Assembly: GCA_964538855.1 (NCBI GenBank)
Contig: CAZIEY010000001.1
Location: forward strand, 245,389-309,388
From: an uncultured Candidatus Saccharibacteria bacterium
GTDB taxonomy: Bacteria > Patescibacteriota > Minisyncoccia > Phycocordibacterales > JAACPR01
Direction of reading: 5' to 3'
DNA length: 64,000 nucleotides
Shown here piece by piece: positions 1 to 59,087 of this stretch. A program made the translations under genes and the position numbers. Position 1 is the stretch's first letter. Each line of letters opens with the position of its first letter. Below the pieces are notes generated by a model. The model was not told the DNA's origin, did not search any database, and saw nothing but the letters and a program-made list of their open reading frames with translations.

Positions 1-453
1 AGTAAGTGATTCAACCAATTGCTGCTCGACAAATCGCAAATAACTACCTTGCATGTCGCGCATGATTTCACCAACGCACAAAATCGGAGTAAGCCCAGCC
101 TCGAGCACATGTGCTAATTTTTGTGCCACAATTTCATTCGTCTCGCCCATCGCCCGTCGTTCCGCATGCCCCACAATGACGAACTCGGCTCCCAAATCAC
201 GTACCATGCCAACCGAGATTTCGCCCGTCGTTGCCTCGTTATCATTCATATAGACATTTTGAGCTCCAAATGCAAACATGCCGCCCCGATAATTTTTCAC
301 GAGGTCCGCGAAATAGATGCTCGGAGGACAAATCACAACCTTGGCAGCCTTGGTCGAAAATTTCGTGCGCTTCAGTGTCGCAAACGTCTTTTTTGCTTCA
401 TTCAGAGACTGCGGCGCCATTTTCCAATTCGCGACTATGAGTTTTTTTGACAT
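1..453 (-). CDS. tpiA: Triosephosphate isomerase, 3'-truncated at the window edge. The ORF track misses it because there is no stop codon in the window.
   Basis: Manual minus-strand translation from ATG (rc of 451-453) gives MSKKLIVANWKMAP...GAQN...GEISVGM...VIVGHAERR, the TIM signature motifs. The frame runs open to position 1. Confidence 0.85.
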   Translation of the reverse strand, partial: MSKKLIVANWKMAPQSLNEAKKTFATLKRTKFSTKAAKVVICPPSIYFADLVKNYRGGMFAFGAQNVYMNDNEATTGEISVGMVRDLGAEFVIVGHAERRAMGETNEIVAQKLAHVLEAGLTPILCVGEIMRDMQGSYLRFVEQQLVESLT

Positions 454-16843: not shown

Positions 16844-16917
16844 TGGTGCGGGCAGGGAGAATCGAACTCCCGTCTACTGCTTGGAAGGCAGTCATTCTAC
16901 CACTAAACCATGCCCGC
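16844..16917 (-). tRNA. tRNA-Gly(TCC), CCA encoded
   Basis: Cloverleaf folds by hand: acceptor GCGGGCA/TGCCCGC, anticodon loop CTTCCAA, T-loop TTCGATT. Confidence 0.85.
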
Positions 16918-16985
16918 GATTAGAAAAATATAGCAGGAAACGAACTTTTATTCAACTCCTTAATCTCTCTGTGTCTCTGAAATTT

Positions 16986-17123
16986 TACATGACTTACATA
17001 TGATTTTTAAGTGGGCTTTCGGAGGACGTTCGGTTTCTCCCAAGTAACGTCCGAGAACGAGCTGAGTTTTTCCGATAGGAAAAACTACAGCGTACCAATC
17101 AAAAATCATATGTAAGTCATGTA
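16986..17123. repeat. Inverted-repeat-bounded element: 23-bp perfect IR, or a 21-bp terminal inverted repeat CATGACTTACATATGATTTTT flanked by TA on both sides (MITE-like).
   Basis: Left arm 16986-17008 equals the reverse complement of right arm 17101-17123 exactly. The 92-nt interior has internal hairpins. It sits in the promoter/5' region of the 17147 gene. Confidence 0.5.
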
Positions 17124-17146
17124 GAATTTCTGATATACTCTATTTC

Positions 17147-20272: not shown

Positions 20273-20773
20273 TTATTCAATCACGTTCTCGATAAACTCC
20301 ACCCGACCGATCATATCCGGCATGAAAAACACCACCGAAGCAACGTCTATTTGAAATTCTGTTTCATGAAGAACATTTTTTTCGGCTAAATACAGTGAGA
20401 TCGTGCGTTTCATACGTAACATCTTAAGCCGATTCACGGACTCAAGCGGATTATATCCCGAAAAATCATCCATTACGATCCCCAACCCATCATATGTTGT
20501 AATGTCCTTTGAAACGGTTTTGACCTCTATAAAATGCAAGACACCGTCCTTCTTTGCCACAATATCAATTTCTCCACACCTTCGGAGAAAATTCCTATCC
20601 AAGATCTGCATACCCTTCTCTGACTTTAACATTTCACACACAATTCCCTCTCCCCAATTCCCAAACTGGCGTTTTTGACTATATTTTTTAACAGAATCCT
20701 CGGCTACCTGTCCTATAAAGTCGGGCATTTTAAAAATTTCACTATCTACCCCATCATTATTTTTGTTATACAT
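20273..20773 (-). CDS. YraN-family (UPF0102) endonuclease
   Basis: 166 aa with the GEIDIVA...LHFIEVKT core. Confidence 0.65.
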   Translation of the reverse strand: MYNKNNDGVDSEIFKMPDFIGQVAEDSVKKYSQKRQFGNWGEGIVCEMLKSEKGMQILDRNFLRRCGEIDIVAKKDGVLHFIEVKTVSKDITTYDGLGIVMDDFSGYNPLESVNRLKMLRMKRTISLYLAEKNVLHETEFQIDVASVVFFMPDMIGRVEFIENVIE

Positions 20774-20879
20774 GTTTCATGAATAACATATCCGGTATGA
20801 AGAAGTGATAAATAAACAATGTAGAAATAATGAATTTTACAGACTAATAATCCACAGTGAATTGTTATTCATGAAACAA
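20773..20879. promoter_or_regulatory. 16-bp perfect inverted repeat TGTTTCATGAATAACA / TGTTATTCATGAAACA spanning the yraN start codon and its 5' region
   Basis: Arms at 20773-20788 and 20864-20879. The proximal arm abuts the yraN AUG. Confidence 0.4.
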
Positions 20880-21070
20880 GTTATGTAGTTTCACGTGAAA
20901 CATAGGTCTTTTATCCACTCAAAGACAGATTTGACAAAAGGTCAAATATATCCTTACTTTACAACATATTTTAACGTTTTGCCTACTTGTAAAAGACTAA
21001 AAGATGATGTCTTTTATACACATGTCCCCAGTCTTATCCACAGTTTTGGGGATACGGTCTTATAGACTCT

Positions 21071-22804: not shown

Positions 22805-22973
22805 GGGGTTTTTGGGTATAAAAAAACTACATAGAAATTTCCTGAAAAAAGCTGGCCAGTATACGGCTGCGCATCGTGATACGTTTAGTATTCGGATGCA
22901 AAGTGGGTTTTGGGGATGTATTTTATTTATTGTTGTAGCCAAACAAGTGGGATTGTTTTGACTCGCCGTGGCA

Positions 22974-23026
22974 AGTAGAGGAATTTGATCGCTTCTGATA
23001 AACAGAAGTAAGCAAATTCCTCTACT
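22974..23026. other. Stable extended stem-loop in a 500-bp intergenic region
   Basis: 13-bp stem GTAGAGGAATTTG/CAAATTCCTCTAC encloses a second 6-bp hairpin CTTCTG...CAGAAG. No T-run follows. Confidence 0.35.
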
Positions 23027-23246
23027 CGACAAGACTGTGCCGTACCCGCCACACTACGTGAAATTTATATATAGTTTTTTATTCTACTGTCTGGCGATAG
23101 CACCGCATAAAGTTTTGAGCCACAAGGGGCGAACCGCGCGCATGCCAGATTATTTTAATGAACAGAAATGAACTAACCTGAAGATAGTATACGTCCTATA
23201 AAGGACATATGTAAAGGACATGGATGTGGATAACTGAATGTCCTTA

Positions 23247-23300
23247 ATAAAAACTCTTAATTTTAAAGTCCTCGGGTCGCATCACGCACGTTCTATTTAA
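23247..23300. repeat. Truncated copy of the palindromic intergenic repeat family (left arm plus core)
   Basis: AATAAAAACTCTTAATTTTAAAGTCCTCGGGTCGCATCACGCACGTTC matches the arm and core of the copies at 44863 and 52981. Confidence 0.5.
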
Positions 23301-44859: not shown

Positions 44860-44862
44860 GGG

Positions 44863-44983
44863 TAAATAAAAATAACTTTAAATTTTAAAAGTCTGGTTGA
44901 GCATCAAAACAAAACACACATTCATTTCTGAACGTGCGTGATGAGACCCGAGGACTTTAAAATTTAAAGTTATTTTTATTTAC
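44863..44983. repeat. Palindromic intergenic repeat, full copy: about 28-bp perfect inverted arms around a 65-nt core
   Basis: Arms GTAAATAAAAATAACTTTAAATTTTAAA / TTTAAAATTTAAAGTTATTTTTATTTAC. Core shared (reverse complement) with the copies at 52981 and 23247. The yidC stop codon lies inside the right arm. Confidence 0.6.
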
Positions 44984-52980: not shown

Positions 52981-53069
52981 ATAAATAAAACAAAAACTCT
53001 TAATTTTAAAGTCCTCGGGTCGCTTTCGCTCAACCAGACTTTTAAAATTAAGAGTTTTTGTTTTATTTA
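52981..53069. repeat. Palindromic intergenic repeat, internally deleted copy: about 30-bp arms around a 29-nt core
   Basis: Arms ATAAATAAAACAAAAACTCTTAATTTTAAA / TTTAAAATTAAGAGTTTTTGTTTTATTTAG. Core GTCCTCGGGTCGCTTTCGCTCAACCAGAC equals the ends of the 44863 core (reverse complement) with the middle deleted. Confidence 0.6.
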
Positions 53070-53364: not shown

Positions 53365-53844
53365 CTAGAATGTAACGTGATGAGCGAAATAAGTCAAGCC
53401 GACTGCGATTGCATCGAACTCGTCGTCACTTTTTATGTCCTTTTTTATCTCGATGAGGCGAGGGATCATGGTCATTATGGCGCGTTTGTCGCTCTTGCCA
53501 TAGCTTGTGATTGCGACTTTTATTGCGTTTGGCATGAATTCTGCAACGTCGAGGCCGGATGTGACGGCTGATGCGATGATTGCACCGCGAGCCTCGGAAA
53601 CCATGAGCGCAGTTTTTGTGTTTTTAGCAAAGAAAAGTGTTTCTATGGCGAGCACTGTGGGGGAGTGGGCTTCGATAATTTCTTTTATTTTATTTTGAAT
53701 GAGGCCGAGTCGTTGTGGGTGAGGGAGTTTTGCTGAAGTTTTAAAACATTCGGAATAAAGCAACATCTCTTTTTGTTTCGGCTGTTTTTCAATTATGGCG
53801 ATACCGAGCCGTTCGTAGCCAGGGTCGATAGAGATGATTTTCAT
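53365..53844 (-). CDS. ruvC: Holliday junction resolvase RuvC
   Basis: MKIISIDPGYERLGIAI... Catalytic Asp in IDPG. Start trimmed to Met19 of the track ORF. Confidence 0.85.
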   Translation of the reverse strand: MKIISIDPGYERLGIAIIEKQPKQKEMLLYSECFKTSAKLPHPQRLGLIQNKIKEIIEAHSPTVLAIETLFFAKNTKTALMVSEARGAIIASAVTSGLDVAEFMPNAIKVAITSYGKSDKRAIMTMIPRLIEIKKDIKSDDEFDAIAVGLTYFAHHVTF

Positions 53845-53862
53845 GTGTCCATTATACACAAT

Positions 53863-53910
53863 TTGTACACAGAATTCCGCTTGACAAATGGTGTACACTC
53901 GGTGTACACT
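53863..53910 (+). promoter_or_regulatory. Promoter with palindromic operators (GTGTACAC x2 plus TGTACAC) for the toxin-antitoxin operon
   Basis: TTGACA at 53881. Tandem perfect palindromes GTGTACAC at 53891 and 53902 overlap the spacer and -10. A third half-site lies at 53864. Confidence 0.5.
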
Positions 53911-53916
53911 TTATTC

Positions 53917-54198
53917 ATGAATAACACGGTACTTAGAAAAGAAAAAGTCCCAGAATTTGTTGGGGTAAAGGAATTTCGGAATAATATTTCGAATTATATT
54001 GCCAAGGCTCAAAAATCTGGCAAAAAAATTATTCTTACAGTCAATAACATTCCTACATTTGAAATGCGTCCAATCAAAAAAGAGCAAGTGTATTCAAAGC
54101 AATTTATTGCGGACATATTAGAGGCAGAGGAAGACGTTAAACACGGTCGTGTATATTCACACGAATATGTTTTAAAAAAGTTTGGCTTCAAAAAATGA
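53917..54198 (+). CDS. Phd/YefM-family antitoxin
   Basis: VGVKEFRNNISNYIAKAQKSGKKIILTVNNIPTFEMRPI matches the Phd/YefM fold. The ATGA overlaps the downstream toxin gene. Confidence 0.65.
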   Translation: MNNTVLRKEKVPEFVGVKEFRNNISNYIAKAQKSGKKIILTVNNIPTFEMRPIKKEQVYSKQFIADILEAEEDVKHGRVYSHEYVLKKFGFKK

Positions 54199-54461
54199 TT
54201 TATTTTTCTCACACATCGAAAGCGATACAAGATTTAGAACAAATAGATAGTTATAATGCGAAAAGGATTACTCTCAAAATTGGCCAGTATGAAAATGACC
54301 CTCATCCTCTCACGCGAGCAAAACCTCTCTCTGGAAATTGGCACAACAGGTTTCGGTATCGAATAGGGGATTACAGAGCAATATTCAAATATGAACAAAA
54401 TGGTAACGATTATCTCGTTACCATTTTGCGTATTAAACACAGAAAAGATGTGTATGAATAA
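54195..54461 (+). CDS. RelE/ParE-family toxin
   Basis: 88 aa with YRIGDYRAIFKYEQNGNDYLVTILRIKHRKDVY, the RelE/ParE signature. Confidence 0.7.
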   Translation: MIYFSHTSKAIQDLEQIDSYNAKRITLKIGQYENDPHPLTRAKPLSGNWHNRFRYRIGDYRAIFKYEQNGNDYLVTILRIKHRKDVYE

Positions 54462-55452: not shown

Positions 55453-56475
55453 TTATAATAACTTCTCCTGTATATGCTCCGGCACCTCTACACCCATATG
55501 TTTATACCCCAACGCCGTCGCTTTGCGGCCGCGCGAAGTTCGCTCGATAAAGCCGAGTTGCAGCAAATACGGCTCGTTGAATTCCTCGATTGTGCTTTCT
55601 TCTTCGGAAAGTGACATCGCGAGCGTGCCGAGTCCGACTGGTCCGCCGTTGAATTTTTTAATCAAAGTTTCCATCACGACAATGTCTGCCTTTGTCAGAC
55701 CGAGCGTATCAATATCAAGCATTGAAAGAGTTTTCAAAACGCTCGCCCGGTGCAAGTCAGTCTGATTGATTTGGCTATAATCGCGACATCGTTTCAAAAG
55801 GTAGTTTGCAGTGCGGGGAGTTTTGCGGCTGCGCTTTGCAATTTCGGCGCATGCGTCACCGTCGATTTTGACTCCGAGAATTTTTGCAGATCGTGCGATG
55901 ATTTTCTCAATCTCAGCGTCGCTGTAAAATTCGAGACGGAATGTTCCTCCTGAAAATCGTGATCGAAGCGGTGCGGAAACCATAGCGACTTTTGTTGTCG
56001 CGGCGATCAATGTAAAAGGCGGCAATTCCAATTGAATGGAACGCGCGCTCGGACCCTTGCCGATAATAATATCAAGCACACCTGATTCCATAGCAGGATA
56101 GAGGATTTCCTCGATCGATTTGTTCAGGCGGTGAATTTCGTCGATGAACAACACGTCGCCTGGTGCGAGGTTTGTGAGGATGCTTGCGAGGTCGCCAATC
56201 TTTTCAATTGAAGGTCCTGATGTAATTTTTATCTGTGCACCAATGTGTTTTGCGATCAAATGGGCAAGCGTCGTCTTGCCGAGCCCCGGTGGACCATAAA
56301 AAAGGATGTGTTCCGGCGGGTGATTGCGCTGTTTTGCAGCTGAAAGCAGAACGTGGAGGTTGTTTTTTATGCTTTCCTGACCAATATATTCGTCCCAAGT
56401 GTCGGGGCGCAATTGTTGGTCCAAAATAACCTCCTCTTTTGGAGCCGCTTGTTCTGTTTTCAAATCGCTTGACAT
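55453..56475 (-). CDS. ruvB: Holliday junction branch migration helicase RuvB
   Basis: 340 aa with Walker A GPPGLGKTTLA and Walker B LFIDEIHRL. Confidence 0.9.
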   Translation of the reverse strand: MSSDLKTEQAAPKEEVILDQQLRPDTWDEYIGQESIKNNLHVLLSAAKQRNHPPEHILFYGPPGLGKTTLAHLIAKHIGAQIKITSGPSIEKIGDLASILTNLAPGDVLFIDEIHRLNKSIEEILYPAMESGVLDIIIGKGPSARSIQLELPPFTLIAATTKVAMVSAPLRSRFSGGTFRLEFYSDAEIEKIIARSAKILGVKIDGDACAEIAKRSRKTPRTANYLLKRCRDYSQINQTDLHRASVLKTLSMLDIDTLGLTKADIVVMETLIKKFNGGPVGLGTLAMSLSEEESTIEEFNEPYLLQLGFIERTSRGRKATALGYKHMGVEVPEHIQEKLL

Positions 56476-56571
56476 ATTTTTTATATATGCTATTATATCA
56501 CCTGAAGACGAAATTTGCTCTCCACAAGACTTGCCCGCGCGACTTATTCATAGCCGCGCCTTTATCCAAGT

Positions 56572-56724
56572 CATAAATCTCTAAACAACGTGGTTCACGC
56601 CTAACAAGGTATTGCTTCGAGGACGTTCCTGGTTTCAAAACTTCGGTTTTGTTGCTGTGACTATCCTCAGAACCTTACCTGCCTTCAAACAAACGAGTTT
56701 GATTGATTTGTTTAGAGATTTATG
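56572..56724. other. 17-bp perfect inverted repeat (CATAAATCTCTAAACAA / TTGTTTAGAGATTTATG) enclosing a 119-nt relatively GC-rich segment. Candidate structured RNA or MITE-like element.
   Basis: Arms at 56572-56588 and 56708-56724. The interior shares GAGGACGTTC..GGTTTC with the interior of the 16986 element. Confidence 0.35.
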
Positions 56725-56889
56725 TTTTGGATCTCTGTGGTGTGCTTCGTAAAAAAGAACTTCTTGTAACTAATATTACAGAAGTTCTTTTTTATTACAA
56801 CTGGTCAGTGGGGAGTTTTTGTTTTATAAGTTTCCAAGCATCAGATTTTACGATCATCTGGCAAAAAGAGGGTAGAGTTTTGTGGGTTT

Positions 56890-57372
56890 TTACTTCGCTT
56901 GGTACCAATTGATGTATTTTACAGGATCCGTTTTTTCGTAGTCAATTTTATTTTGAAAATACTGAATTCCTCTAAATCCACTCACAAATACTGCGATAAG
57001 AAACATTGGTACAAAAATAAATCCTCCGTAATATGCACCAAATACAACACCAAGTATTATCGTCTCTACGAATAGGGAACTCGTGAGTCCCCCTGCTCCA
57101 ACAAAAAGGCTTGCAATCACTGATAATAATAAAATACAAGAAATGAAAGAATACGTTTTAAAGTACCTAAGTTGTATAAAACAAAACATCAAAAATAATA
57201 AAATACAGTTAATGATGTAATACACCAAGTGAAAATCTGTTGTATTACCTAGCAAAAAATCAGAATCAGAGCTCATTATGTTGTAAAGTAAAGTCAGTAT
57301 GATAGTTCCCGCTGTAGCCCAACCAAGAAATGCACCGTATCGCTGATGATTTTTATATGGAATTATTTTCAT
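56890..57372 (-). CDS. Integral membrane protein, hypothetical, co-oriented with and overlapping the PilB-like gene
   Basis: 160 aa with 4 TM helices. The ATGA-type 4-nt overlap suggests an operon with the 57369 gene. Confidence 0.45.
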   Translation of the reverse strand: MKIIPYKNHQRYGAFLGWATAGTIILTLLYNIMSSDSDFLLGNTTDFHLVYYIINCILLFLMFCFIQLRYFKTYSFISCILLLSVIASLFVGAGGLTSSLFVETIILGVVFGAYYGGFIFVPMFLIAVFVSGFRGIQYFQNKIDYEKTDPVKYINWYQAK

Positions 57373-59087
57373 ATGTTAGGAGTTGCCTCAGTACCATCAG
57401 CTATCTTTCCTTCGCGTTTCTCCATATCCACCGTTCGCGCCACTTCTTCCCAGTCGGTGAGACCGGCTAAAATCTTAATGAGACCGTCTTGAGACATATC
57501 CATCATGCCTGCAGCAGCAGCCACCTTTTTAATTTCACGTTCGCTTGGGTTGTCTTGAACGATTGCTTCGATTTCTGGGGTAGTAGTGATGGCTTCATAA
57601 ATACCGAGACGTCCACGGTAGCCAGTTTTGTTACACTTTTCGCAACCAACCGGTTCGTAAATTGTGTCGGTAAAAACAGGTTTGTGTTCTGTTGGAATTG
57701 ATTCGTGAATTGATTTTGCAATTTCCAAAATCGCAGGGGACATTTTCACGGCTTTCTTACAATGCACACATAATTTTCGAGCGAGACGTTGCGCAATCAC
57801 GAGAGTGAGCGCTGACGTTAAAATTTTTGAATTGATACCAAGGTCAATGAGACGAGGGTATGCACCCGCCGCATTATTGGTGTGAAGGGTAGAGAACACA
57901 ATGTGACCAGTGAGCGCCGCCTGCACCGCAGTTTCGGCTGTGTCGTAATCTCGAATTTCACCCACCATGATGACATCGGGGTCCTGACGGAGGGAACTCT
58001 TGAGACCTTTTGCAAAGTCATATTCCATTTTCGGATTGACTTGAGTCTGCACAACACCTGCGAGGTGATATTCAATCGGGTCTTCGATAGTAATGATTTT
58101 AATGTCAGCTCCGCGCTTTTTGTTGAGAAAGGCGTAGAGTGTCGTTGTTTTACCGGAACCAGTCGGACCAGTATTCAAAATCATCCCGTGCGGTTTGTTA
58201 ATTTCGCGCATGAAAATTTCAATCAAATATGGTGGCACACCGAGGTCTTCGATCGGAATTGAAAGGGAATTCGGGTCGAGAAGACGCATAACAATAGACT
58301 CTCCATAATTTCCCGGTAATACCGACGAACGAATTTCAATTTCGTGTTCACCGACTTTTACACTGAAACGACCGTCCTGCGCATTGTCTCTAATGTTAAT
58401 TTTCAGACCAGATAATAATTTGATGCGGGACAAAAGAAGTCGATATGTTTCGTGATCAAATGCGCTGACTTTGATGAGTACGCCGTCGATGCGGAATCGT
58501 AATGTGACGCTTTCTTCTTCGGGTTCGACGTGAATATCGGATGCCTTGGTGGCCATTGCTGCAGCGACAATGACTTCGACAATTCGCGAAATGCGGAAGC
58601 TTTTTTTCATTGTCATCATTTCTTCGATCAGTGCGCGTGCGCTGTCTATGTTTTGTACTTTCGTCATGAACTCTTCAATTTCTCCACTTGAAATATCAAG
58701 GGAGCCAGCTTTTGAAACTTGAGCAAAGGAAATGTCGGCATAACGCGACCAAGCCTTGTTGAGACTTTTTGTGGAGACAAGAAAAGGTTTGATGAAATAT
58801 CCGCGTCGTTCTAGATCGGCAATTTCATTTTTCACCTCCTGACGATTTGGCGTTTTCATCGCAAAAGAAACCGTTTTGTTATTCATATTAAAAACTGCGA
58901 CTTGGGTTGCGCGCGCACGATCTTCTGGGATAAGTCGTAGCGCATCAGTGTTGATTGTTTCACCAGACAAATCAATATATGAAATCCCGTAGCGAGAAGA
59001 GAGGGTCTGGGCTAACTCCTCCTCTTCAACTTCAAGGAGTGAATCAATGCGCTGATTTTGTTTTTCCTCATCAAACTTAATGGTCAT
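57369..59087 (-). CDS. Second GspE/PilB-family secretion ATPase, with a C-terminal tetracysteine motif
   Basis: Walker A GPTGSGKTTT. CxxC...CxxC (CVHCKK...CEKCNKTG) present. N-terminal GspII-like domain. Confidence 0.8.
   Translation of the reverse strand: MTIKFDEEKQNQRIDSLLEVEEEELAQTLSSRYGISYIDLSGETINTDALRLIPEDRARATQVAVFNMNNKTVSFAMKTPNRQEVKNEIADLERRGYFIKPFLVSTKSLNKAWSRYADISFAQVSKAGSLDISSGEIEEFMTKVQNIDSARALIEEMMTMKKSFRISRIVEVIVAAAMATKASDIHVEPEEESVTLRFRIDGVLIKVSAFDHETYRLLLSRIKLLSGLKINIRDNAQDGRFSVKVGEHEIEIRSSVLPGNYGESIVMRLLDPNSLSIPIEDLGVPPYLIEIFMREINKPHGMILNTGPTGSGKTTTLYAFLNKKRGADIKIITIEDPIEYHLAGVVQTQVNPKMEYDFAKGLKSSLRQDPDVIMVGEIRDYDTAETAVQAALTGHIVFSTLHTNNAAGAYPRLIDLGINSKILTSALTLVIAQRLARKLCVHCKKAVKMSPAILEIAKSIHESIPTEHKPVFTDTIYEPVGCEKCNKTGYRGRLGIYEAITTTPEIEAIVQDNPSEREIKKVAAAAGMMDMSQDGLIKILAGLTDWEEVARTVDMEKREGKIADGTEATPNI

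What the first reader, a model, noticed from the sequence alone, without database searches (positions are those of the whole stretch)
56572..56724. Second IR-bounded ~150-bp element between ruvB and the pilB-like operon shares an internal motif with the 16986 element
A 17-bp perfect inverted repeat (CATAAATCTCTAAACAA ... TTGTTTAGAGATTTATG) encloses 119 nt that is noticeably more GC-rich than the surrounding spacer.

Its interior contains CGAGGACGTTCCTGGTTTC. The interior of the 16986 element contains CGGAGGACGTTCGGTTTC. That is a shared exact 10-mer GAGGACGTTC plus GGTTTC, which is unlikely by chance between two 100-nt segments. The two may be diverged members of one structured element family: non-autonomous MITEs or a small RNA gene family.
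Basis: seen in the sequence. Interest (0 to 1): 0.5.

Follow-up and report, generated by a model that had tools for sequence, protein, structure and literature searches.

The report
Conserved structured RNA gene beside ruvB
The inverted-repeat-bounded unit is not a mobile element but the gene for a roughly 170-nt, four-helix non-coding RNA of unknown function, found in the same place (between ruvB and pilB) in a whole class of ultra-small bacteria (Paceibacteria) and absent from the RNA family databases searched.

Summary
A perfect 17-bp inverted repeat (25 nt at 92%) encloses 119 nt, and the 16986 element shares the 10-mer.

The unit is a small RNA gene, not a MITE. An element with the same architecture lies upstream of ruvB in all 10 nearest genomes. 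It also occurs in 120 metagenome loci, always one copy, and always between ruvB and pilB in the 80 loci checked.

The stems covary: 25 of 40 pairs carry double changes. G-U pairs and folding energy place the RNA on the strand opposite ruvB. On that strand 75 of 76 loci have a near-consensus promoter whose -35 box overlaps the ruvB start codon. The fold is a four-way junction with an invariant core in the long arm.

Rfam 15, phage and viral collections and the literature searched gave nothing.

The 16986 element is not a detectable member. Two covariance models and an HMM fail to find it, and it is missing from the same spacer in three relatives.

Function is unknown. My best guess is a processed, protein-binding RNA acting in trans.

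The parts
56469..56496 (+). Promoter of the RNA: -35 TTGACA (56469-56474), 16-nt spacer, extended -10 TGcTATTAT (56488-56496). The -35 box overlaps the ruvB start codon (CAT on this strand). The transcription start near 56503 is predicted, not measured.
   Evidence: The scan scores 11 of 12 with TG. The same arrangement, TTGAC[AT]-16..18-TAnnnT, is present in 75 of 76 unique loci, 73 of them with TG and 74 followed by CAT/CAC/CAA.
56503..56563 (+). Variable 5' leader between the predicted start and P1. It is not conserved; the distance from the -10 box to the element is about 10 to 104 nt in relatives.
56564..56588 (+). P1, 5' arm of the long closing stem.
   Evidence: In the unbiased alignment 17 of 24 P1 pairs show changes on both sides.
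56589..56599 (+). P2, a small hairpin (CGUG-GUU-CACG). In relatives the sequence differs but a hairpin is kept, often with UUCG or GCAA loops.
56607..56680 (+). P3, the long arm. They flank a variable apical hairpin (56637-56650, UUCG loop).
   Evidence: AGGA:UCCU, UGG and CUG are invariant or nearly so, and the 4-bp NNNN:NNNN segment covaries. A model of P3 alone, built without the window, scores 41 bits here.
56685..56702 (+). P4 hairpin (UCAAAC-AAACGA-GUUUGA).
   Evidence: partial covariation
56708..56732 (+). P1, 3' arm of the closing stem.
56750..56794 (.). A-tract, 15-bp hairpin and T-tract. It is a likely bidirectional intrinsic terminator ending both the RNA (plus strand) and the convergent pilB operon (minus strand).
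   Evidence: Perfect 15-nt inverted repeat flanked by A and T runs. The consensus scan did not call it because the stem has too few G-C pairs. In 32 of 78 relatives a T5-8 run follows P1 directly instead.
55453..56475 (-). ruvB, transcribed divergently. Its start codon lies inside the RNA promoter's -35 box.
16971..17138 (.). The '16986 element'. It has 44-nt arms at 86% complementarity and an 80-nt interior. It is listed for comparison only and is not a detectable member of the family.

Best explanation
The element is a single-copy gene for a structured non-coding RNA of about 150-175 nt. It is read from the window's plus strand, opposite to ruvB and pilB.

Shown:
- It sits between ruvB and a pilB-type ATPase gene throughout class Paceibacteria of the Patescibacteria (CPR).
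- It has a near-consensus sigma-70-type promoter, back to back with ruvB.
- It folds into a four-way junction. P2 is a short hairpin. P3 is a long arm with an invariant core, 5'-AGGAC-N4-UGGU ... CUG-N4-UAUCCU-3'. P4 is a hairpin.
- Helices are maintained by compensatory and G-U changes.

Inferred:
- Transcription starts about 10 to 100 nt upstream of P1.
- It stops either at a U-tract directly after P1 or at a nearby hairpin terminator.
- The unconserved leader is removed at the roughly 27-bp P1 duplex, which is long enough for RNase III.
- The mature RNA acts in trans as a protein-binding scaffold. The P3 core, an irregular helix with a conserved tandem U-G/G-U plus G-C step and a C/UA internal loop, would be the recognition site.

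The cellular role is unknown.
For: Synteny:
- An inverted-repeat-bounded unit of 100-117 nt interior lies upstream of ruvB in all 9 closest genomes, at 66-70% RuvB identity. It is also present in L010 at 60%.
- All 120 loci carry exactly one strong model match on the RNA strand, 64-146 bits.
- Among the 80 loci whose flanks were checked, every one with enough flank has ruvB divergent upstream and pilB convergent downstream.

Structure:
- In the alignment not selected on the RNA, 94% of cells are paired.
- 25 of 40 pairs carry double changes, against 12 +/- 2 in shuffles (0 of 500 reach it) and at most 11 when partners are slid.
- The four-way topology is the minimum-energy fold in 63 of 79 unique members, against 30% for shuffled interiors.

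Strand:
- The plus strand folds better in 76 of 79 members, by 13 kcal/mol on average.
- There are 433 G-U against 64 A-C at consensus pairs.

Expression signals:
- The promoter is present in 75 of 76 loci.
- A U-tract directly follows P1 in 32 of 78.

Not a catalogued family:
- There is no Rfam 15 match at E <= 10 for the window, or at E <= 5 for 14 other members.
Against: - There is no expression data, so the transcript, its ends and the RNase III step are all inferred.
- In the window itself the minus strand folds slightly better (-60.9 against -58.7 kcal/mol). The strand call rests on the family, not on this copy.
- P1 is unusually conserved in sequence for a purely structural helix: 7 of the 11 sequences found through RuvB share AUAAAUCUCUAA. 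This is unexplained and could point to a function not considered here.
- Rfam also fails on another ultra-conserved structured region in this window. Absence from Rfam is therefore weak evidence that the RNA is not a very diverged known class.
Confidence: 0.8

Rival explanations
1. It is this lineage's 6S-type RNA, a decoy that binds RNA polymerase holoenzyme. P1 would be the closing stem, P3 the internal stem, and the P2/P4 region the 'central bubble'. This names a function within the best explanation rather than opposing it.
For: - The size is 150-175 nt.
- It is single-copy and found across the clade.
- It has its own strong promoter.
- Two helices of about 2.5 turns flank a central region.
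- Sequence conservation of the closing stem could reflect polymerase contacts or templating of a product RNA. This rests on my own knowledge of 6S biology and was not tested.
Against: - The 6S model gave no match even at E <= 10 on 411 nt, nor on 14 other members.
- The centre is two covarying, often tetraloop-capped hairpins, so it is a true four-way junction and not an open bubble.
- P1 is almost perfectly paired, unlike the bulged 6S closing stems.
Confidence: 0.12
2. The functional strand is the ruvB/pilB strand. The hairpin would be an intercistronic mRNA element between pilB and ruvB, such as a terminator, a processing site or a stabiliser.
For: - Both flanking genes are on that strand.
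- The window's copy folds marginally better on it.
- Long hairpins elsewhere in this genome sit at gene ends.
Against: - Across the family the other strand is favoured in 76 of 79 members, and G-U outnumbers A-C by 433 to 64.
- A near-consensus promoter faces the other way in 75 of 76 loci.
- A U-tract follows P1 on the other strand in 32 of 78.
- A terminator lies between the pilB operon and the element in the window.
Confidence: 0.06
3. It is a MITE or other non-autonomous mobile element bounded by terminal inverted repeats.
For: It is about 150 bp with terminal inverted repeats. The genome does hold a real inverted-repeat-bounded repeat family, at 44862-44983, 52982-53069 and a partial copy at 23249-23293.
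Against: - There is one copy per locus in 131 loci outside the window, always in the same gene context wherever flanks could be checked.
- There is no other copy in the window at up to 3 mismatches.
- The arms covary, with strand-asymmetric G-U pairs.
- Nothing was found in phage or viral collections.
Confidence: 0.02
4. The 16986 element is a diverged paralogue, or a partial derivative, of this RNA gene.
For: - The shared block is UUCG(G)AGGACGUUC..GGUUUC.
- It falls on the family's most conserved motif.
- It is the best off-target hit of a family HMM built without the window.
- By eye, a second collinear resemblance follows: UCCUCAGAAC against UCCGAGAAC.
- Both elements have a long closing stem.
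Against: - The HMM E-value is 3.3.
- Neither the full model nor the P3-only model aligns the interior.
- The motif pairs in a different register: GGACGUU:AACGUCC, against AGGA:UCCU plus a bulge.
- The pairwise p-value is 0.001 to 0.02 before correction for selection.
- The element is absent from the same spacer in L081 (86% identical protease), L082 and L084.
- No other copy exists in 2.2 Mb of related DNA.
Confidence: 0.1

Closest known systems
6S RNA (Rfam RF00013 and lineage-specific variants such as 6S-Flavo)
   Same: It is about 150-200 nt, single-copy, has its own strong promoter, and has two long helices on either side of a central region.
   Different: There is no model match. The centre is a structured four-way junction with covarying hairpins. 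The closing stem is nearly perfect and conserved in sequence. No polymerase data exist.
Bacterial MITEs and palindromic repeats (Correia, ERIC, RUP-type elements)
   Same: A unit of about 150 bp bounded by inverted repeats in an intergenic spacer.
   Different: It is single-copy, fixed in one syntenic position across a class, and its arms covary as RNA helices.
RNase III processing stems that flank stable RNAs (for example the 16S and 23S rRNA precursors)
   Same: A long, near-perfect duplex is formed by the sequences on either side of a compact structured RNA, and the leader outside it is unconserved.
   Different: The enclosed RNA is not an rRNA or tRNA, and cleavage is inferred, not shown.
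Bacterial Y RNAs (YrlA type)
   Same: A long terminal stem closes a multi-helix module, in a small abundant-type RNA.
   Different: There is no T-arm-like or Ro-binding motif and no Rfam match. Whether these genomes carry an rsr gene was not tested.
Bidirectional (back-to-back) promoters with overlapping -10 elements
   Same: In the window the RNA's TATTAT and a TGaTATAAT on the ruvB strand overlap (read directly from the sequence).
   Different: The overlap of -10 boxes is not conserved in all relatives. What is conserved is the -35 box lying over the ruvB start codon.

Membership tests
MITE / mobile IR element | Multiple dispersed copies in a genome | tested here: not met
   There are no further copies in the window at up to 3 mismatches. 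Each of 131 loci outside the window holds exactly one copy.
MITE / mobile IR element | Presence or absence varies between relatives (empty sites) | tested here: not met
   It is present upstream of ruvB in all 10 nearest genomes. It lies between ruvB and pilB in every checked metagenome locus with enough flank.
MITE / mobile IR element | Target-site duplication flanking the terminal repeats | not tested
   None is obvious in the window, but this was not examined systematically.
Same family as the 16986 element | The interior aligns to the family's sequence and structure model | tested here: not met
   The full model matches only a generic hairpin, 18.4 and 17.0 bits on the two strands. The P3 model gives no match at E <= 10 with filters off. 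The family HMM gives E = 3.3.
Same family as the 16986 element | Conserved in relatives, as the 56572 element is | tested here: not met
   It is absent from the tRNA-Gly(UCC)/protease spacer in L081, L082 and L084. It is identical in two assemblies of the same species.
6S RNA | Match to the 6S covariance model | tested here: not met
   No 6S match at E <= 10 or at E <= 5 on 14 members.
6S RNA | Rod-like fold with a large open central bubble | tested here: inconclusive
   Two long helices are present, but the centre forms two covarying hairpins.
6S RNA | Binds sigma-70 holoenzyme and templates a product RNA | not testable with these tools
   This needs biochemistry.
SRP RNA (4.5S) | Domain IV hairpin with a GNRA tetraloop and conserved symmetric and asymmetric loops | tested here: not met
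   There is no Rfam match. The only conserved arm has a variable or absent apical hairpin.
RNase P RNA (including the diverged CPR forms of bioRxiv 10.1101/2020.03.05.979740) | About 300-400 nt, with the conserved P4 pseudoknot regions | tested here: not met
   The unit is 150-175 nt. There is no RNase P match even at E <= 10. AGGACGU resembles GAGGAAAGUCC only superficially.
Independent structured ncRNA gene | Covariation supporting the helices, own promoter, own terminator, conserved across species | tested here: met

The most novel reading that the evidence does not exclude
This is a previously undescribed housekeeping-type RNA, universal to class Paceibacteria, one copy per genome and locked between ruvB and pilB. 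It would form a new ribonucleoprotein, or be the lineage's functional stand-in for a regulator such as 6S, in organisms whose non-coding RNA repertoire is almost unexplored.
Probability: 0.5. Interest if true: 0.65.

Novelty: new member of a known kind. Interest (0 to 1): 0.55.

Why it matters
Paceibacteria and other CPR bacteria have genomes of about 0.5-1 Mb with very little non-coding DNA. An RNA kept in one place across a whole class, with a promoter as strong as a tRNA promoter, is therefore likely to do something basic.

It gives a concrete, easily testable target, and a covariance model now exists for it. It can be followed up by metatranscriptome mapping, RNase III processing assays and partner pull-downs in a group where no such RNA appears to have been described.

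It also shows that inverted-repeat-bounded units in these genomes are of at least two kinds: ancient RNA genes and young lineage-specific palindromes. They should not be lumped together.

Tried and rejected
- Rfam at gathering threshold on the whole window, and at permissive E-values on both elements and on 14 other family members: only tRNAs and chance miRNA-like hairpin matches.
- ARAGORN: no tmRNA.
- GenBank phages by blastn, and IMG/VR by pattern, for both elements: nothing.
- Literature searches on CPR, Patescibacteria or Parcubacteria combined with ncRNA, 6S, RNA motif, ruvB or pilB: nothing relevant except a preprint on diverged RNase P RNAs in CPR.
- Hammerhead, hairpin-ribozyme, k-turn, SRP domain IV, tRNA-like and RNase P P4 resemblances were considered by eye. 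All were dropped because the matching bases are not conserved in the family or the order of motifs is wrong.
- MAFFT Q-INS-i could not run because a helper program is missing. RNAalifold on a MAFFT alignment of the 3' segment predicted no pairs because the P4 strands were misaligned by one column. P2 and P4 therefore rest on per-sequence folds compared with shuffled interiors, not on a column-wise covariation count.
- A search for other sites complementary to the conserved P1 arms in the window found none.
- GC skew was not informative about an origin near 21-23 kb.

Full report
**Observation.**
- The two 17-nt arms at 56572-56588 and 56708-56724 are exact reverse complements around 119 nt.
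- The repeat extends to 25 nt per arm at 92% complementarity.
- The interior is 44.5% GC, against 23.5% for the arms and 37% for the rest of the spacer.
- The element lies between ruvB (55453-56475, minus strand) and a 160-aa ORF followed by a T2SSE/PilB ATPase gene (57369-59087, minus strand).
- GAGGACGTTC occurs exactly twice in the window, once here and once in the element at 16971-17138.
- The local similarity between the two interiors is reached by 6 of 5000 mononucleotide shuffles. With dinucleotide shuffles, both orientations and cheap gaps it is reached by 74 of 4000.

**Organism and synteny.**
- RuvB's nearest relatives in the species-representative genome set are Patescibacteria of the Paceibacteria/Parcubacteria group, at no more than 70% identity.
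- In all nine closest loci an inverted-repeat-bounded unit with a 100-117 nt interior sits just upstream of ruvB.
- Its arms are usually CATAAATCTCTAA..., but in L001, L008 and L009 they differ on both sides while staying complementary.
- A covariance model built from these ten sequences also finds the unit at the same place in L010, a Sungiibacteria genome with 60% RuvB identity. It finds nothing in 70 more distant loci.
- Every one of the 120 loci carries exactly one strong match on the RNA strand, 64-146 bits.
- Among the 80 loci whose flanks were checked, every one with enough flank has ruvB divergent on one side and the pilB-type gene convergent on the other.
- This is the opposite of a mobile element's distribution.

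**Structure.**
- On the alignment that was not selected on the RNA (ten loci found through RuvB), RNAalifold predicts 40 pairs, 25 of them with compensatory double changes.
- Counted directly, 94% of cells pair. Double-change pairs number 25, against 12 +/- 2 in shuffles (0 of 500 reach it) and at most 11 when the 3' partners are slid by 1-3 columns.
- Single-sequence folds of 79 unique members give the same topology in 63 cases: a closing stem P1 and three branches P2, P3 and P4. Only 30% of sequences with a shuffled interior do so, and interiors are more stable than shuffles (mean z = -2.1).
- P2 and P4 differ widely in sequence while keeping a hairpin. Examples for P2 are GUGCCC-UUCG-GGGCAU, GCC-GCAA-GGC and CGUG-GUU-CACG.
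- The conserved sequence is concentrated in P1 and in the middle of P3: 5'-AGGAC-NNNN-UGGU ... CUG-NNNN-UAUCCU-3'. The two NNNN segments covary, and the apical hairpin is variable or absent.

**Strand and expression signals.**
- The strand opposite ruvB folds better in 76 of 79 members, by 13 kcal/mol on average.
- At consensus pairs there are 433 G-U against 64 A-C.
- On that strand the window has TTGACA-16-TGcTATTAT at 56469-56496.
- The same promoter is present in 75 of 76 unique loci, 73 of them with the extended -10 TG.
- In 74 of them the -35 hexamer is followed by CAT, CAC or CAA, that is, the ruvB start codon read on the other strand.
- The tRNA-Gly gene at 16844-16917 has a similar promoter.
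- The distance from the -10 box to P1 varies from about 10 to 104 nt and that stretch is unconserved.
- After P1, 32 of 78 members have a T5-8 run within a few bases, so P1 plus the U-tract looks like an intrinsic terminator. The others extend P1 with a covarying (N)CUGGA/UCCAG(N) segment.
- In the window an A-tract, 15-bp hairpin and T-tract follow at 56750-56794.
- No gene follows on the RNA strand in most loci, so a cis-acting leader or riboswitch is unlikely.

**What it is not.**
- Rfam 15 gives only five tRNAs in the window at gathering threshold.
- There are no credible matches at E <= 10 on the element or at E <= 5 on 14 other members.
- There is no SRP domain IV and there are no RNase P conserved regions, and the unit is too small for RNase P or tmRNA.
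- A preprint reports diverged RNase P RNAs in CPR that need lowered thresholds (10.1101/2020.03.05.979740). Even the permissive scan shows none here.
- No matches were found in GenBank phages or IMG/VR.
- I found no description in the paper library.
- One caution applies. Rfam also fails on another, much more conserved structured region in this window. Absence from Rfam is therefore weaker evidence of novelty in this lineage than elsewhere.

**How it probably works.**
- Shown: a conserved, independently signalled, structured RNA gene.
- Inferred:
  - The primary transcript carries a disposable leader.
  - The roughly 27-bp, nearly perfect P1 duplex, whose full length is under selection, is the kind of substrate RNase III cuts. 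The mature RNA would then be the P1-bounded four-way junction.
  - The invariant irregular helix in P3, with its tandem U-G/G-U plus G-C step and C/UA internal loop, is the likely recognition site for a protein partner.
- The strong sequence conservation of P1 is unexplained.
- A 6S-like role is the most concrete functional candidate (size, copy number, promoter, two long helices). However, the structured centre and the lack of any model match argue against it, and I give it about 0.12.
- The RNA promoter covers the ruvB start codon, so the two transcription units must compete or be co-ordinated. This is read from the sequence, and its consequence is inferred.

**The 16986 element.**
- It has 44-nt arms and an 80-nt interior, and folds best on the plus strand.
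- The full model matches it only as a generic long hairpin, equally on both strands, and skips the interior.
- A model of P3 alone, built without the window, recovers the window's P3 at 41 bits (E = 9e-9) but does not list the 16986 element at E <= 10 with filters off.
- A family HMM built without the window and its closest relatives does place its best off-target hit on the motif, but at E = 3.3.
- The shared bases pair differently. In the 16986 element GGACGUU pairs with AACGUCC. In the family AGGA pairs with UCCU, followed by a bulged C and a separate 4-bp segment.
- The tRNA-Gly(UCC)/serine-protease arrangement is kept in L081 (protease 86% identical), L082 and L084, but their spacers hold no such element.
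- Two assemblies of the same species carry it unchanged.
- No copy exists in 2.2 Mb of related DNA.
- It is therefore a young, lineage-specific palindromic insertion. Its right end now carries the extended -10 box (TGATATACT) of the apparently leaderless protease gene.
- A partial derivation of its first hairpin from the resident RNA gene remains possible, at about 0.1.

**Verdict.**
- The RNA family appears undescribed and is widespread in Paceibacteria.
- Its function is unknown.

Noticed in passing
window 22805-23250: A roughly 440-nt intergenic region between the CCA-adding-enzyme gene and an Exo_endo_phos gene is ultra-conserved. Identity is 84%, with long 100% blocks, against L081 and L082, although a nearby protease is only 54% identical in L082. 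It is strongly structured, more so on the minus strand (z = -7.1), with a long closing stem and an inner hairpin at 22969-23031. There is no Rfam match at E <= 10 and no tmRNA. It may be a very diverged housekeeping RNA.
   Followed up: partly
window 23190-23250: TGTGGATAA (a DnaA-box consensus) lies next to two direct AAAGGACAT repeats and an inverted ATGTCCTT. All are conserved in L081 and L082. GC skew gave no clear origin signal.
   Followed up: partly
window 44862-44983, 52982-53069, 23249-23293; L081 10662-10790: This is a genuine inverted-repeat-bounded repeat family. Perfect 28-29-nt AT-rich arms surround a GC-rich core, AGUCUGGUUGAGC...GACCCGAGGACU, with copies in both orientations. 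A homologue in L081 has a core 85% identical but entirely different, still complementary arms. The apex reads as a GNRA loop (GAAA, GUAA) on one strand, and tandem G-A pairs resemble a k-turn. The copies sit at gene or tRNA 3' ends, like elaborate terminators. No Rfam match.
   Followed up: partly
window 16971-17138: The 16986 palindrome lies between the tRNA-Gly(UCC) promoter and the protease gene. Its right end overlaps the protease's extended -10 box, TGATATACT, 7 nt before the ATG. The same gene in L081, L082 and L084 has TGCTATAAT or TGCTATACT 6 nt before the ATG, which suggests leaderless mRNAs.
   Followed up: partly
window 56469-56501: The RNA's -10 box (TATTAT, plus strand) overlaps TGaTATAAT on the ruvB strand, and the -35 box covers the ruvB ATG. 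The two transcription units therefore share a back-to-back promoter region.
   Followed up: partly
window 20770-20915: A 19-nt inverted repeat encloses 74 AT-rich nt. It is followed by a second palindrome and by TAATCCACA / TTATCCAC sequences that resemble DnaA boxes.
   Followed up: no
window 53773-54461: Two small overlapping ORFs of 141 and 88 aa on the plus strand look like a toxin-antitoxin pair from their layout and from the C-terminal ...RIKHRKDVYE. This was not checked against any library.
   Followed up: no
L002 and L005, downstream of the RNA: In two relatives a lipoprotein-like gene with its own TTGACT-N17-TATAAT promoter is inserted between the RNA and pilB. The window instead has a 160-aa membrane ORF on the other strand. 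The RNA-pilB spacer therefore tolerates gene insertions, while the ruvB-RNA junction is fixed.
   Followed up: no
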